Of a stretch of DNA of 64,000 nucleotides, positions 51,190-54,029 are shown one piece after another. How positions within the stretch are numbered: the stretch's first letter is position 1; every line of letters begins with the position of its first letter. The notes under the pieces were generated by a model that was given only the letters and a program-made list of their open reading frames with translations, made no database searches and had not been told where the DNA came from. This DNA comes from the human T2T-CHM13v2.0 reference genome, Homo sapiens: the NCBI RefSeq assembly GCF_009914755.1, contig NC_060933.1; one strand, 5' to 3'. Made by a program: the position numbers and the translations under genes.

Positions 51190-52265
51190 TATACAACAAA
51201 ATAAATAAAGTAGTATTGGACTTTCATCCAAAATATAGAATAAATATCCATACATTAGGCTGGGTGCGGTGGATCACGCCTATAATCCCAGCACTTTGGG
51301 ACACCGAGGTGGGTGGATCACCTGAGGTCAGGAGTTCGAGACCAGCCTGACCAACATGGTGAAACCCTGTCTCTATAAAAATACAAAAATTAGCCAGGCA
51401 CGGTGGTGCATGCCTGTGATCCCAGCTACTTGGGAGGCTGAGGCACGAGAATGACTTAAACCTGGGAAATGGACGTTGAAGTGAGCCAAGATCGCGCCAC
51501 TGCACTCCAGCTTGGGCAATAGAGTGAGACTCTGTCTCAATAAATAAATAAATACATATCCATATGTTCATACTGATAGAAATAAATGATTGAAAAATAA
51601 ATGGGAGAAGGTTCAAATCTGTGCAGAAGTCCCAATAATTTATGTAGATACTCCACCCTTAAGGAAGTGGAGCATAACTCCCAATTCTTTCAGCACAGAC
51701 TTTACATAGTAACTTTCTGCCGACAAGTAGAGTATGAAAACAGGGAAGATAAAGAGGAAGTTGACGGTAGGCAAACCTGACAAGCACTAACTCAGCCAGG
51801 CAATCAAGGTTAACATCAACAGTGACAGTATGTACCCTTGACATGATATAATGAAAATGGCATTTTTAACTCTGGTTTTCCTCTCAAAAACACATAGCCC
51901 CAGTTTACTCATGAAAAAAACATTAGGCAAATGCCAGCAGAGGGACATTCTACAAAATACCTGACCAATACTCCTCGAGATATTCAAGGTCATCAAAAGT
52001 AAGGAAAGTCCTCTCCAGAGGAACGCAGGGAGACACTCTGACTAAATGTAATACAGTATCCTGGATAAGATCCTAGAATAGAAAAAAAAGGACATTAGGA
52101 AAAAACAGAGGAAATTTGAATGAAGTATGGATTTTTGCCAACAATAATTTATCACTATGGGTTTATTAATTGTGACAAATACACCACACTAATGGCAGAT
52201 GTTAATAAAGGAGAAACTAGATGAGGGGTATATGGGAACTCTCTGTACTATCTTCATATTTTTTT
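51190..52265 (+). mobile_element. L1MC/L1MD 3' region interrupted by an Alu
   Basis: GATCAAGGTTAACATCA-like motif, GGGACATTCTACAAAATACCTGACC, GGGAACTCTCTGTACTATCTT. Confidence 0.75.
51258..51553 (+). mobile_element. AluS (apparent donor of the 53.3-kb insertion)
   Basis: Alu consensus; TSD AATAMATATCCATAYRTT. Confidence 0.95.
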
Positions 52266-53308
52266 TTAAACAAGCAGTCAAATGAAACTGAAGAGGAAAT
52301 ATATTCTATTTTGCCTGGAAAAATATCTCCTTCGCACCTTCTTGAAACACTTGTTAGCAGTGCCAGGTACAGGGCCCACCCAGAACAAAGCTGAATAAAT
52401 GTAATTTCAACACAGTTTCTAAAATACAGCTCTTAGTGCCCTCCCAGTTTCTGAGGTTCTTGGCCTACTAAGAACCAGGGGTGGCGTGCAAAGATGTAGC
52501 TGGTCTTGCCTGTGCTTGCAGAGCAGAGTAAAGCCTAAGTGAGGTATATATGGGATCCGTCCTCACTTAGAATATACCTGAGGGAGACTTTGAGGGGTGA
52601 TCTGCCAAGGATACTGAGCCAAGCTTCTTCCCAGGAGCTCCTGTTTGAATGAAATGTTAAATAGCACAGACAGGGCCCAGAGTTAGTGGGGTGTAGCTTG
52701 CTGGGCAGAACTGGGTTACTCCCTGGCGTGCCTCCCTGATCCATGGATGAGGCAGTGGGAGGATGTCCCTCCTAAGCAGTCCCTTTTTATTAAAAAGAAA
52801 AAAAACTTTTAGGTTTAGGCGTACGCATGAAGGTTGGTTACATAGGTGAACTCATGTCATGGAGGTTTGTTGTACACACTATTGCATCACCCGGGTATTA
52901 AGCCCAGTACCCAGTAGTTATCTTTTCTGCTCCTCTCCCTTCTCCCACCATCCACCCTCAAGTAGAGCCCAGTGTCTGTTGTTCCCTTCTTTGTGTTCAT
53001 AAGTTCTCATCATTTAACTCCCACTTATAAGTGAGAACATGAAGCATTGCTTTTCTGTTTCTGTGTTAGCTTGCTGAGGGTAATAGCCTCCAGCTCCATC
53101 CATGTTCCCATAAAAGATAGGATCTCATCCCTTTTTATGGCTGCATAGTAGTCCATGGTGTATATGTATCACGTTTTCTTTATTCAATCTGTCATTGATG
53201 AGCATTTAGTTGATTCCATGTCTTTGCTATTGTGAATAGTGCTGCAATGAACATTCAGGTGTATGTGTCTTTATGGTAGAATGATTTATGTTTCTCTGGG
53301 TGTATACC

Positions 53309-53524
53309 TGATACATGCCTGGTAGGTGGAGGTTGCAGTGAGCCAAGATCGTGCCACTGCACTCCAGCCTGGGCAACAGAGCAAGACTCTGTCTATAAAT
53401 AAATAAATATCCATACATTCATACTGATAGATATTCCAAATAATGGAGTTATCCATTATTTGGAATTATCCATTATTTGGAATTTCTATCAGTATGAATG
53501 TATGGATATTTATTTATTTATTTA
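53309..53524. other. TSD-less templated insertion with fold-back palindrome inside L1
   Basis: Copy of 51461-51583 followed by its own inverted repeat. Confidence 0.88.
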
Positions 53525-54029
53525 TAATGGGATTGCTGGATTGAACAATAGTTCTGCTTTTAGCTCTTTGAGAAATTGCCATACTGCTTTCCACAATGGT
53601 TGAACTAATTTACACTCTCACCAACAGTGTATAAGTGTTCCCTTTTCTCTGCAACCTCTCCCCATCTGTTGTTTTTTGACTTTTTAATGATAGCCATTCT
53701 GACTAGAGTGAGATGGTATCTCATGGTGGTTTTGGTTTGCATTTCTCTAATGATCTATGATATTGAGCTTTTTTTCATATGCTTGTTTGCCACATTTACG
53801 TCTTCTTTTGAAAAGTGTTTGTTCATGTCCTTTGCCCACTTTTTAACGGGTTTGTTTGTTTTTCTCTCGTAAGTTTAAGTTCCTTATAGATGTGGATGTT
53901 AGACCTTTCTCAAATGCATAGTTTGCAAATATTTTCTCCCATTCTGTAGGTTGTCTGTTTACTGTGTTAATACTTTCTTTTGCTGTACAGAAGCTCTTTA
54001 GTTTAACTAGATCCTATTTGTCAATTTTT

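What the first reader, a model, noticed from the sequence alone, without database searches (positions are those of the whole stretch)
51461..53526. Templated insertion copied from 1.8 kb away that folds into a ~53-bp palindrome inside L1
L1 sequence breaks after TATACC (53308) and resumes at TAATGGGATTGCTGG (53525), with about 3 bases lost and no TSD. The insert is a short filler, then the 3' end of an Alu plus ATATCCATACATTCATACTGATAGA, which matches the Alu and its downstream flank at 51461-51583. It then reverses: 53395-53447 and 53469-53526 are inverted repeats (one mismatch, one extra ATAA unit) around a 17-bp tandem duplication TTATCCATTATTTGGAA (53449-53482). The arms match each other much better than the donor, so the hairpin either formed later or is being homogenised. 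Inference: multi-step template-switch repair of a break, leaving a cruciform-capable AT-rich palindrome or RNA hairpin.
Basis: partly seen in the sequence, partly recalled or inferred. Interest (0 to 1): 0.8.

Follow-up and report, generated by a model that had tools for sequence, protein, structure and literature searches.

The report
Templated repair scar forming small palindrome
An old break in a human L1 repeat was patched with a copy of a nearby Alu end and its flank that then folded back on itself, leaving a small AT-rich hairpin-forming palindrome; it is a clear but ordinary example of a known kind of DNA-repair scar.

Summary
A 216-nt non-L1 insert (53309-53524) replaces three L1 bases (CAG), with no target-site duplication and no poly(A) at either junction.

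The insert reads:
- a 9-nt filler;
- about 117 nt copied from the 3' end, (ATAA)n tail, target-site duplication and first 12-15 nt of flank of an Alu 1.85 kb upstream (51461-51583);
- about 17-21 nt with no detectable template;
- an inverted copy of the last 53-57 nt, with an exact 2x17-nt tandem duplication at the tip.

A whole-genome search finds the Alu-tail-flank junction only at the local donor. The donor is native: it has its own target-site duplication inside an older repeat.

The best reading is templated break repair with a snap-back.

The upstream copy of the donor's duplication and related repeats show that the donor-versus-arm differences are private to the donor. The right arm keeps donor states that the left arm later lost. 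A single event is not rejected (P 0.05-0.5).

There is no sign of function: Rfam gives only sub-threshold generic hairpin hits. This is a new member of a known kind, of low to moderate interest. Dating needs primate orthologues, which were not available here.

The parts
51239..51256 (+). Upstream copy of the donor Alu's target-site duplication. It serves as the outgroup for polarising differences.
   Evidence: (D5): identical 18 of 18 to 53402-53419, and 83% to the downstream copy 51551-51568. One search shows the same 18 nt in the reverse complement of 53497-53514; in 4 of 4 related old-repeat copies the up- and downstream flanks overlap by 10-13 nt, which is the TSD.
51258..51555 (+). Donor Alu, full length with an (ATAA)n-type tail, inserted into an older interspersed repeat.
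   Evidence: Sequence read. TSD shown. Alu homology to 34 other window Alus.
51461..51583 (+). Donor tract that was copied: the last ~77 nt of the Alu, the tail, the downstream TSD and 12-15 nt of flank.
   Evidence: 83.7% over 123 columns to 53318-53434. (D2, D4, I2). (flank-only score 41, against 21 and 24 at the two distant Alus that reached furthest).
53100..53308 (-). L1 sequence left of the break; it ends ...TATACC. The minus orientation of the L1 is recalled, not tested.
   Evidence: aligns to 11 of 11 genomic L1 relatives at 81-86% identity, ending at the break.
53309..53317 (+). 9-nt filler (TGATACATG) with no significant template.
   Evidence: Alu homology of the window's Alus starts at 53317/53318. 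The filler with its context gives only 9-13-nt chance-level matches (E at least 0.05).
53318..53394 (+). Copy of an Alu 3' end (77 nt).
   Evidence: It is 87% identical to the donor and up to 90.9% to other window Alus. The Alu body alone therefore does not identify the donor.
53395..53447 (+). Left arm of the palindrome: (ATAA)3 tail, TSD (53402-53419), flank (53420-53431) and a centre of unknown origin (about 53432-53447).
   Evidence: I1, D4, D5; private A>T at ...GATAGATAT, and a tail 4 nt (6 nt counting the lost CA) shorter than donor and right arm; no template found for the centre.
53448..53451 (+). GTTA, the 4-nt loop of the inner (pre-duplication) register. This is the inferred snap-back turn.
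   Evidence: I14: 15-nt arms, 100% complementary, 4 nt between..
53449..53482 (+). Exact tandem duplication, 2 x 17 nt, at the tip of the hairpin.
   Evidence: the two units are identical. (D9, the same repeat in another phase).
53469..53525 (+). Right, inverted arm. It is the reverse complement of centre, flank, TSD and (ATAA)4. It retains the donor's tail length and the donor's A. Base 53525 (T) is shared with the L1, a 1-nt microhomology.
   Evidence: I1: 53 nt, 98%; I2: 44 nt, 93% to donor 51540-51583 without a gap..
53525..53760 (-). L1 sequence right of the break; it resumes at TAATGGG.
   Evidence: 86-93% identity to 11 of 11 relatives, starting at the break.

Best explanation
This is a neutral scar of one ancient repair episode at a double-strand break, or collapsed fork, inside an L1.

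Inferred order of steps:
1. The 3' end of the plus strand on the left side (...TATACC) lost or failed to keep CAG and received 9 nt of filler.
2. It paired with the minus strand of an Alu 1.85 kb upstream and copied about 120 nt: Alu 3' end, (ATAA)4 tail, TSD and 12-15 nt of flank.
3. It came off and gained about 17-21 further nt from no template I could find.
4. It snapped back on itself (TGGA/TCCA around a GTTA loop) and copied its own last ~57 nt in reverse complement.
5. It stopped in the (TTAT)n run and was joined to the right L1 end (TAATGGG) through a 1-nt overlap.

Later changes:
- The left arm lost 6 nt of its tail and took an A>T change.
- 17 nt at the hairpin tip were duplicated, either during the event or after it.
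- The donor accumulated about 10 private substitutions.

The result is a 131-nt, 79% A+T palindrome that can fold as a hairpin or cruciform. Nothing indicates that it does anything.

Shown here: the anatomy, the identity and native status of the donor, the direction of copying, and the polarity of the differences.

Inferred: the order of synthesis, that it was a single episode, the DNA nature of the template, and the enzymes. The candidates are polymerase-theta-type end joining for the filler and snap-back, and SDSA/MMBIR-type synthesis for the long donor tract.
For: L1 break. The L1 is interrupted precisely, with 3 nt lost, no TSD and no insert in 11 of 11 relatives.

Donor identity:
- The donor match runs past the Alu into tail, TSD and flank.
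- The 67-nt query 53404-53470 hits only itself and its own inverted arm in the whole genome.
- The 22-nt TSD/flank word has 8 places with 2 or fewer mismatches: the two arms, the donor and 5 others.
- Of the 6 non-arm places, only the donor (1 of 6) has an Alu end and (ATAA)n upstream.
- The chance that one of 6 places lies within 2 kb is about 1e-5 (my arithmetic).
- Two distant Alus that reached into the flank are Alus with ACAT-type tails; their flank-only scores are 21 and 24, against 41 for the donor.

Direction of copying. The donor Alu has its own TSD, and its flanks are contiguous in 4 of 4 related old-repeat copies.

One primer end. The donor copy has the donor's orientation and is joined to the left end, so it can be made by extending the left plus-strand 3' end. 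The inverted arm covers only a subset (tail to centre) of what the left arm holds, as expected if the arm was copied from the nascent strand.

Snap-back on the nascent strand rather than a U-turn at the donor. The centre is absent from the donor's downstream flank (44 of 300 shuffles score as well). That flank is itself intact relative to the old-repeat relatives.

Single episode not rejected. The branch counts are 10, 4 and 0.

Junction features. Microdeletion, filler and 1-nt microhomology are those described for break-repair insertions (PMC5110952, passages). Snap-back synthesis mixed with untemplated addition is described for polymerase theta (PMC4912351, passages).
Against: - With all substitutions counted, at most 1 arm difference has P = 0.047 under one event. 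This is a weak hint that the inverted arm is younger or has been corrected.
- The donor branch carries more changes than the copy: 10 against 4, one-sided P 0.09; 9 against 2 without CpG context, P 0.03. That is odd under a clock.
- The Alu body of the insert is no closer to the donor (87%) than to other Alus (up to 90.9% in the window; 92-95% genome-wide). It could have come from another Alu through one more switch.
- The ~120-nt donor tract and the 57-nt snap-back are far longer than typical polymerase-theta insertions (median 7 bp in PMC4912351).
- The 17-21-nt centre and the 9-nt filler have no identified source.
- No orthologue or population data could be consulted, so neither the age nor the one-step claim is tested directly.
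Confidence: 0.55

Rival explanations
1. Two or more separate events. First a templated insertion (filler, Alu end, tail, TSD, flank and a few more bases) repaired the break. Much later a local replication template switch, of the 'four-point' or quasi-palindrome type, copied the end of that insert in reverse complement and created the palindrome. The 17-nt duplication followed. A variant: the arms are old but kept alike by arm-to-arm conversion.
For: The arms differ by 1 substitution in 53 nt, while donor and left arm differ by 14 in 121 nt. P(at most 1) is 0.047 if all substitutions are counted. The tandem duplication is exact, so at least something at the tip may be recent. Short template switches that create perfect stems in one step are documented in human and ape genomes (PMC5453318 and PMC10710096, passages).
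Against: - The excess of differences lies on the donor branch, not on a shared branch of the copy.
- Without CpG context, or at the left-arm rate, the test is far from significant (P 0.11-0.52).
- The right arm preserves donor states that the left arm has lost: 4 ATAA units and the A in ...GAAAT. So the arm was copied before those left-arm changes. Conversion, if any, has not erased them.
- The right arm ends directly at the L1 junction, which a single repair episode explains without a further coincidence.
Confidence: 0.22
2. An RNA- or cDNA-mediated patch, of the kind described as class 2 templated sequence insertion or endonuclease-independent retrotransposition. A read-through transcript of the donor Alu, or of the locus, was reverse-transcribed at the break, and the hairpin comes from self-priming (snap-back) by the reverse transcriptase.
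For: The junctions have the class 2 features: no TSD, no poly(A) at the junction, a microdeletion and untemplated bases (PMC5110952, passages). An Alu transcript would run through the tail into the flank; reading, the first TTTT on the plus strand downstream of the donor lies about 300 nt away. That such transcripts end at a TTTT run is recalled. A nascent local transcript would also explain the proximity.
Against: - Experimental templated insertions mapped to 18 of 24 chromosomes without preference (PMC5110952), whereas this donor is 1.85 kb away on the same strand.
- No splicing, polyadenylation or other RNA mark is present.
- A hairpin at the flank side needs the RNA's own 3' end to self-prime, followed by conversion of a chimeric molecule. 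That is more steps than the DNA route.
- No transcript is annotated here in the hub table.
Confidence: 0.12
3. Ordinary L1-driven retrotransposition: a 5'-truncated Alu with 3' transduction of its flank, inverted by twin priming.
For: The insert contains an Alu 3' end, an A-rich tail and downstream flank, as a transduction would.
Against: - There is no TSD; 3 nt are lost instead.
- There is no A-rich run at either junction in the required orientation. The (ATAA)n runs are internal, or inverted at the right junction.
- On either strand the order is direct segment then inverted segment, the reverse of the twin-priming layout, and the two segments duplicate each other. The twin-priming layout is recalled, not looked up.
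- No better distant donor exists.
Confidence: 0.02
4. An assembly or sequencing artefact, such as a chimeric palindromic read built into the assembly.
For: Palindromic chimeras are a known long-read library artefact (recalled). Only one assembly was available here.
Against: - The insert is 13-16% diverged from its donor, so it cannot be a mis-join of present-day sequence.
- The arms carry their own differences: 1 substitution, a 4-nt tail difference and the 17-nt duplication.
- The structure is 216 nt, far shorter than a read, and is flanked on both sides by continuous L1.
Confidence: 0.02

Closest known systems
Class 2 templated sequence insertions (TSI/TSIP; break repair with a copied 'patch'). 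Source: PMC5110952, passages read.
   Same: No TSD, no poly(A), a microdeletion at the target and untemplated bases or minimal microhomology at the junctions. The donor is left intact.
   Different: The donor is 1.85 kb away on the same chromosome rather than at a distant locus. There is no evidence of an RNA origin. The insert also contains a fold-back copy of itself. Whether it is polymorphic is unknown.
Short-range template-switch mutations (quasi-palindrome or four-point model). Sources: PMC5453318 and PMC10710096, passages read. PMC8794818 and PMC7954356 were seen as search listing and abstract start only.
   Same: A stretch is copied in reverse complement from the nascent or opposite strand, creating a near-perfect stem in one step. 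The 53-nt stem lies in the 30-55-base range those authors screened for new hairpins.
   Different: Here the inverted copy is part of a larger insertion with a second template 1.85 kb away, plus filler. The four-point model explicitly does not cover long-range or successive switches.
Polymerase-theta-mediated end joining with snap-back (in cis) and in-trans templated synthesis, and SD-MMEJ. Source: PMC4912351, passages read. PMC5728401 and PMC2943611 were seen as listing and abstract start only.
   Same: The same mixture of untemplated bases, copying from a nearby template and snap-back synthesis that gives complementary tracts at a repaired break.
   Different: Scale. The median insertion in that paper was 7 bp, whereas here the tracts are about 120 nt and 57 nt. 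The enzyme cannot be inferred from sequence.
Fold-back inverted duplications and MMBIR/FoSTeS-type complex rearrangements. Sources: PMC3907307, PMC10766183, PMC11293582 and PMC9588063, all seen as listing and abstract start only.
   Same: The logic is the same: serial template switches with little or no homology, and a fold-back step that yields an inverted duplication with a short spacer.
   Different: Those events span kilobases to megabases and change copy number. This one is 216 nt and local.
Palindromic AT-rich repeats (PATRRs). Source: PMC7999016, passages read.
   Same: An AT-rich, near-perfect palindrome with predicted hairpin or cruciform potential.
   Different: PATRRs are several hundred bp long and more than 90% AT. 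This palindrome is 131 nt and 79.4% AT, with a 4-21-nt spacer. No breakage or translocation is known for it.

Membership tests
Class 2 templated sequence insertion (break-repair patch) | No target-site duplication at the insertion | tested here: met
   in 11 of 11 L1 relatives the flanks abut. 3 nt (CAG) are lost and nothing is duplicated.
Class 2 templated sequence insertion (break-repair patch) | No poly(A) tract or cryptic poly(A) signal at the 3' junction | tested here: met
   the left junction is TATACC followed by the filler, and the right junction is a (TTAT)n run followed by TAATGGG. The A-rich runs are internal or inverted.
Class 2 templated sequence insertion (break-repair patch) | End-joining marks: microdeletion, microhomology, untemplated bases | tested here: met
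   A 3-nt deletion, a 9-nt filler without a template and a 1-nt overlap (T at 53525).
Class 2 templated sequence insertion (break-repair patch) | Template at a distant genomic region, or derived from RNA | tested here: not met
   The donor is 1,851-1,857 nt upstream on the same strand. No RNA mark was seen. The RNA-versus-DNA question itself cannot be settled from sequence.
Class 2 templated sequence insertion (break-repair patch) | Insertion polymorphic among humans (the 'P' of TSIP) | not testable with these tools
   Only one human assembly is held.
Short-range template-switch mutation (four-point model) | A fragment copied in reverse complement from sequence close by | tested here: met
   53469-53525 is the reverse complement of 53395-53447, with 1 mismatch.
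Short-range template-switch mutation (four-point model) | A single switch and return on the same local template, with no other template | tested here: not met
   The insert also has a 1.85-kb-distant template, a filler and a centre of unknown origin.
L1-mediated retrotransposition (Alu insertion, 3' transduction, twin priming) | Target-site duplication | tested here: not met
L1-mediated retrotransposition (Alu insertion, 3' transduction, twin priming) | Poly(A) at the 3' end next to the target | tested here: not met
   (see the junction sequences above).
L1-mediated retrotransposition (Alu insertion, 3' transduction, twin priming) | Twin-priming layout: an inverted 5' segment followed by a direct 3' segment with its tail (layout recalled) | tested here: not met
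   the direct segment comes first and the inverted one second, on either strand, and the two segments duplicate each other.
PATRR (palindromic AT-rich repeat) | Several hundred bp long and more than 90% AT (PMC7999016) | tested here: not met
   131 nt, 79.4% AT.
PATRR (palindromic AT-rich repeat) | Site of recurrent breakage or translocation | not testable with these tools
   No variation or breakpoint data are held.
Known microRNA or other Rfam hairpin family | Score at or above the family's gathering threshold | tested here: not met
   there are 15 matches at E up to 1 and none reaches its threshold. The best are MIR7502 at 49.4 against 71 and mir-3149 at 45 against 100. Both strands score alike, as for any long AT-rich hairpin.

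The most novel reading that the evidence does not exclude
The inverted arm may be distinctly younger than the templated insertion, or may be kept near-identical by arm-to-arm correction. On that reading, an Alu tail plus flank, captured at a break, is caught in the act of growing into a self-maintaining AT-rich palindrome. The exact 17-nt duplication at the tip would be the latest step. That would make this a natural small-scale model for how PATRR-like fragile palindromes, or new hairpin-RNA genes, begin.
Probability: 0.12. Interest if true: 0.45.

Novelty: new member of a known kind. Interest (0 to 1): 0.25.

Why it matters
This is a cleanly resolved germline example in which all layers of a multi-template repair event can still be read: untemplated filler, a nearby donor, an unexplained tract, a snap-back and a tip duplication. 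Built-in outgroups make the reading possible. The donor Alu's own target-site duplication and the old repeat family around it allow every later change to be assigned to a branch.

Such cases help calibrate how long templated and snap-back tracts can be in the germline. They also show one way in which hairpin-capable palindromes arise from Alu tails.

It does not reveal a new mechanism or any function. Its practical consequences are modest: a possible local hotspot for replication slippage or deletion, and a place where short-read mapping and repeat masking will mislead.

Tried and rejected
- Better distant donor or 3' transduction. Whole-genome searches with the 241-nt region, the 67-nt tail-to-centre piece and the 22-nt TSD/flank word found none. 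The two distant Alu hits that reached into the flank have ACAT-type microsatellite tails and lack the flank.
- Flank as an ordinary repeat. The 22-mer belongs to an old interspersed repeat family: 74 hits at 3 or fewer mismatches, against 21 for the reversed control. This could have made the match trivial. However, of the 6 non-arm places with 2 or fewer mismatches, only the local donor has the Alu end and tail upstream.
- Source of the centre (53431-53451). I looked in the donor's downstream flank, the donor region, the L1 flanks and the rest of the window. Shuffles did as well in 44 of 300, 200 of 300, 290 of 300 and 7 of 40 trials. Genome-wide, the 22-mer gives 30 hits against 23 for the control, with nothing near the locus. 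Apparent likenesses, seen by eye, to the L1 break site and to the donor's AAATAAATGGGAG stretch are therefore not claimed.
- Source of the 9-nt filler. Only chance-level 9-13-nt matches were found. Five- and six-nt echoes of nearby sequence that I noticed by eye are at the expected chance level (my arithmetic).
- Donor-specific mutations shared by the Alu bodies. There are 3 shared-derived positions. Two are flagged as CpG context. I read the third as a decayed CpG in the outgroup majority rather than a shared change. None is informative.
- Known RNA family. None was found.
- Unavailable: primate orthologues, other human haplotypes, raw reads and small-RNA data.
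Full report
**What is there**

The sequence from about 52800 to 54026 is an L1. Its minus orientation is my recollection of the family, not a test. I took the 176 nt right of the break and searched the whole genome, which is held here as G000 (40 matches scored, 12 returned as loci). I aligned the 11 loci that were not the window itself across the break.
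- In all 11 the two flanks are contiguous, and none has an insert.
- In 6 of 11 the local alignments leave exactly CAG between ...TATACC and TAATGGG.
- In the other 5 the 4-22 unaligned bases read through as the same L1 positions (CAG three times, CAT, AAG).

So 53309-53524, 216 nt, replaces three bases. There is no target-site duplication, and no A-rich run lies at either junction in the orientation a retrotransposition would need.

**Anatomy of the insert**

- 53309-53317: a 9-nt filler. The Alu homology of the window's other Alus begins at 53317/53318.
- 53318-53394: the last 77 nt of an Alu.
- 53395-53431/34: an (ATAA)n tail, an 18-nt stretch identical to the upstream target-site duplication of the Alu at 51258-51555, and the first 12-15 nt of that Alu's downstream flank (D2, D4, D5; 83.7% over 123 columns to 51461-51583).
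- About 53432-53451: 17-21 nt for which I found no template.
- 53452/53469-53525: the reverse complement of centre, flank, TSD and tail.
- 53449-53482: an exact 2 x 17-nt tandem duplication at the tip.

The arms 53395-53447 and 53469-53521 differ by one substitution in 53 nt.

In the inner register, 53433-53447 pairs with 53452-53466 around a 4-nt GTTA loop (I14). Without the duplication, this would be a palindrome with a 4-nt spacer.

**More than chance**

- The DNA fold is -51.8 kcal/mol, against -11.0 +/- 2.7 for 200 shuffles (z -15, none as good).
- The RNA fold is -80.3 kcal/mol (z -16, none of 200 as good).
- In the whole 64-kb window this is the only inverted repeat of at least 25 nt within 150 nt that is neither a simple repeat nor at or below 85% complementarity (14 pairs listed, of which 3 are this one, 6 are TA/TG simple repeats and 5 are at most 85%).

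**Is the local Alu really the donor, and which way did the copy go?**

The Alu body does not answer this. The insert's 77 nt are 87% identical to the donor (10 differences). They are up to 90.9% identical to other Alus in the window and 92-95% to the best of the genome's Alus.

The evidence lies in the tail, TSD and flank.
- The 67-nt piece 53404-53470 finds only itself and its own inverted arm in the genome.
- The 22-nt TSD/flank word occurs with no mismatch only in the two arms. With 2 or fewer mismatches it occurs at six other places, one of them the donor.
- That word belongs to an old interspersed repeat family: 74 hits at 3 or fewer mismatches, against 21 for the reversed control. I therefore looked at all six non-arm places. 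Only the local one has an Alu end and (ATAA)n upstream.
- One of six places falling within 2 kb has a chance of about 1e-5 (my arithmetic).
- Two distant Alu hits reached as far into the query as the donor did. They turned out to be Alus with ACAT-type tails. Their flank-only local scores are 21 and 24, against 41 for the donor.

Direction is given by context. In 4 of 4 related copies of the old repeat, the window's upstream flank aligns up to relative position 1510 and its downstream flank aligns from 1498-1501. The Alu at 51258-51555 is therefore a classical insertion with a 10-13-nt or longer duplication. The Alu/flank junction is native there and secondary in the L1.

**Polarity of the differences**

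The numbers are right: 1 of 53 between the arms, 3 of 44 between donor and right arm, and 4 of 40 plus a gap between donor and left arm. The differences can, however, be assigned to branches.
- The upstream TSD copy (51239-51256) is identical 18 of 18 to both arms, while the donor's downstream copy differs at three positions.
- At two of those three positions the related old-repeat copies also carry the arms' state.
- So all three differences are private to the donor.
- The right arm matches the donor without a gap over 44 nt: four ATAA units and the A in ...GATAGAAAT (I2). The left arm has a shorter tail and a T there. The 'extra' unit is ancestral, and the left arm changed afterwards.
- In the Alu body, polarised with 34 other window Alus, the donor has 7 private changes (6 outside CpG context). 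The copy has 3 (one clearly outside a CpG).

The totals are donor 10, left arm 4 and right arm 0. Under a star tree with one rate, the probability of at most one difference between the arms is:
- 0.047 with all substitutions counted;
- 0.11 without CpG-context changes;
- 0.16-0.52 if the left-arm branch rate is used.

A single event is therefore not rejected. The pattern mostly reflects an unexplained excess on the donor branch (one-sided P 0.09, or 0.03 without CpG context).

**Mechanism**

The simplest path extends one primer, the plus-strand 3' end at ...TATACC:
1. Filler is added.
2. About 120 nt are copied from the minus strand of the donor 1.85 kb upstream. The copy has the donor's orientation, as this requires.
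3. The end is released.
4. About 17-21 nt are added without a template I could find. For the window, shuffles did as well in 44 of 300, 200 of 300, 290 of 300 and 7 of 40 trials. Genome-wide the word gives 30 hits against 23 control hits.
5. The strand snaps back on itself at TGGA/TCCA.
6. About 57 nt are copied from the strand itself.
7. The end is released within (TTAT)n and joined to TAATGGG through one shared T.

Three observations fit this path.
- The inverted arm holds only a subset of the left arm.
- The centre is absent from the donor.
- The donor's flank is intact relative to its repeat family.

These favour a snap-back on the nascent strand over a U-turn at the donor, and over priming from the right-hand end, which would need one more switch.

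All of this ordering is inference, and so are the enzymes. Polymerase theta is described as alternating between untemplated addition, in-trans copying and snap-back copying (PMC4912351, passages). Its median insertion there was 7 bp, so the long tracts here look more like SDSA/MMBIR-type synthesis.

An RNA or cDNA patch cannot be excluded from sequence, because the junction features are those of class 2 templated insertions (PMC5110952, passages). The 1.85-kb proximity argues for a DNA template or, at most, a local nascent transcript.

L1-driven retrotransposition with transduction or twin priming fails on TSD, poly(A) and segment order.

An artefact is very unlikely. The copy is 13-16% diverged from its donor, and the arms carry their own differences.

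**Function**

None is indicated.
- No transcript is annotated over the site in the hub's table.
- Rfam gives 15 matches at E up to 1, all microRNA-type or other hairpin models, on both strands, and all below the gathering score. The best are 49.4 against 71 and 45 against 100.
- The palindrome is 131 nt and 79.4% A+T. That is well short of PATRRs, which are several hundred bp and more than 90% AT (PMC7999016, passages).

It may be a minor slippage or deletion hotspot. The exact tip duplication and the tail-length difference are the kind of change a hairpin promotes, but that is inference.

**Comparison with what is known, and verdict**

Each ingredient is established.
- Break-repair templated insertions: PMC5110952.
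- Short template switches that create stems in one step: PMC5453318 and PMC10710096 (passages).
- Snap-back synthesis in end joining: PMC4912351.
- Fold-back inverted duplications and serial template switching at larger scales: PMC3907307, PMC10766183 and PMC11293582 (listings and abstract starts only).

This locus combines them at an intermediate scale and is unusually legible. It is a new member of a known kind, not a new mechanism.

Interest is about 0.25.

The open point is whether the palindrome is as old as the insertion. Primate orthologues and human long-read data would settle it. Neither could be consulted here.

Noticed in passing
window 51467-51481: Four of the donor Alu's private substitutions cluster within about 15 nt, directly after the point where the copied tract begins (51461). 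The donor branch as a whole carries more changes than the copy: 10 against 4. This could be chance, or a mutagenic trace of the copying on the donor.
   Followed up: partly
window 51150-51257 and 51556-51760 (relatives L013, L014, L015, L018): The donor Alu sits in an old interspersed repeat. The family name was not determined; it looks like an old L1 3' end from recall. Its 22-nt word around the insertion site has 74 genomic hits at 3 or fewer mismatches, against 21 for the reversed control.
   Followed up: partly
window 61715-61959: An inverted repeat with 106-nt arms, 83% complementary and only 33 nt apart, probably a close inverted Alu pair. That configuration is reported to stall replication when the spacer is short (PMC7999016).
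   Followed up: no
window 32446-32841: An inverted repeat with 139-nt arms, 79% complementary, 118 nt apart. Probably another inverted Alu pair.
   Followed up: no
window 10512-10564: A perfect (TA)n run of about 53 nt, itself a self-complementary tract. It lies inside the RefSeq enhancer span 10000-10982 of the hub table.
   Followed up: no
window 53316-53375 (minus strand): A sub-threshold Rfam match to mir-3135 (33.4 bits against a gathering score of 80) over the Alu part of the insert. This presumably reflects an Alu-derived family rather than anything about this locus.
   Followed up: no
G000 C9:39035219, C9:43393872, C9:79118013: Three identical 22-mers, each 2 mismatches from the palindrome's centre, lie at distant places on the same chromosome. 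They probably belong to a segmental duplication or repeat. They are at chance level for this word: 30 hits against 23 for the control.
   Followed up: no
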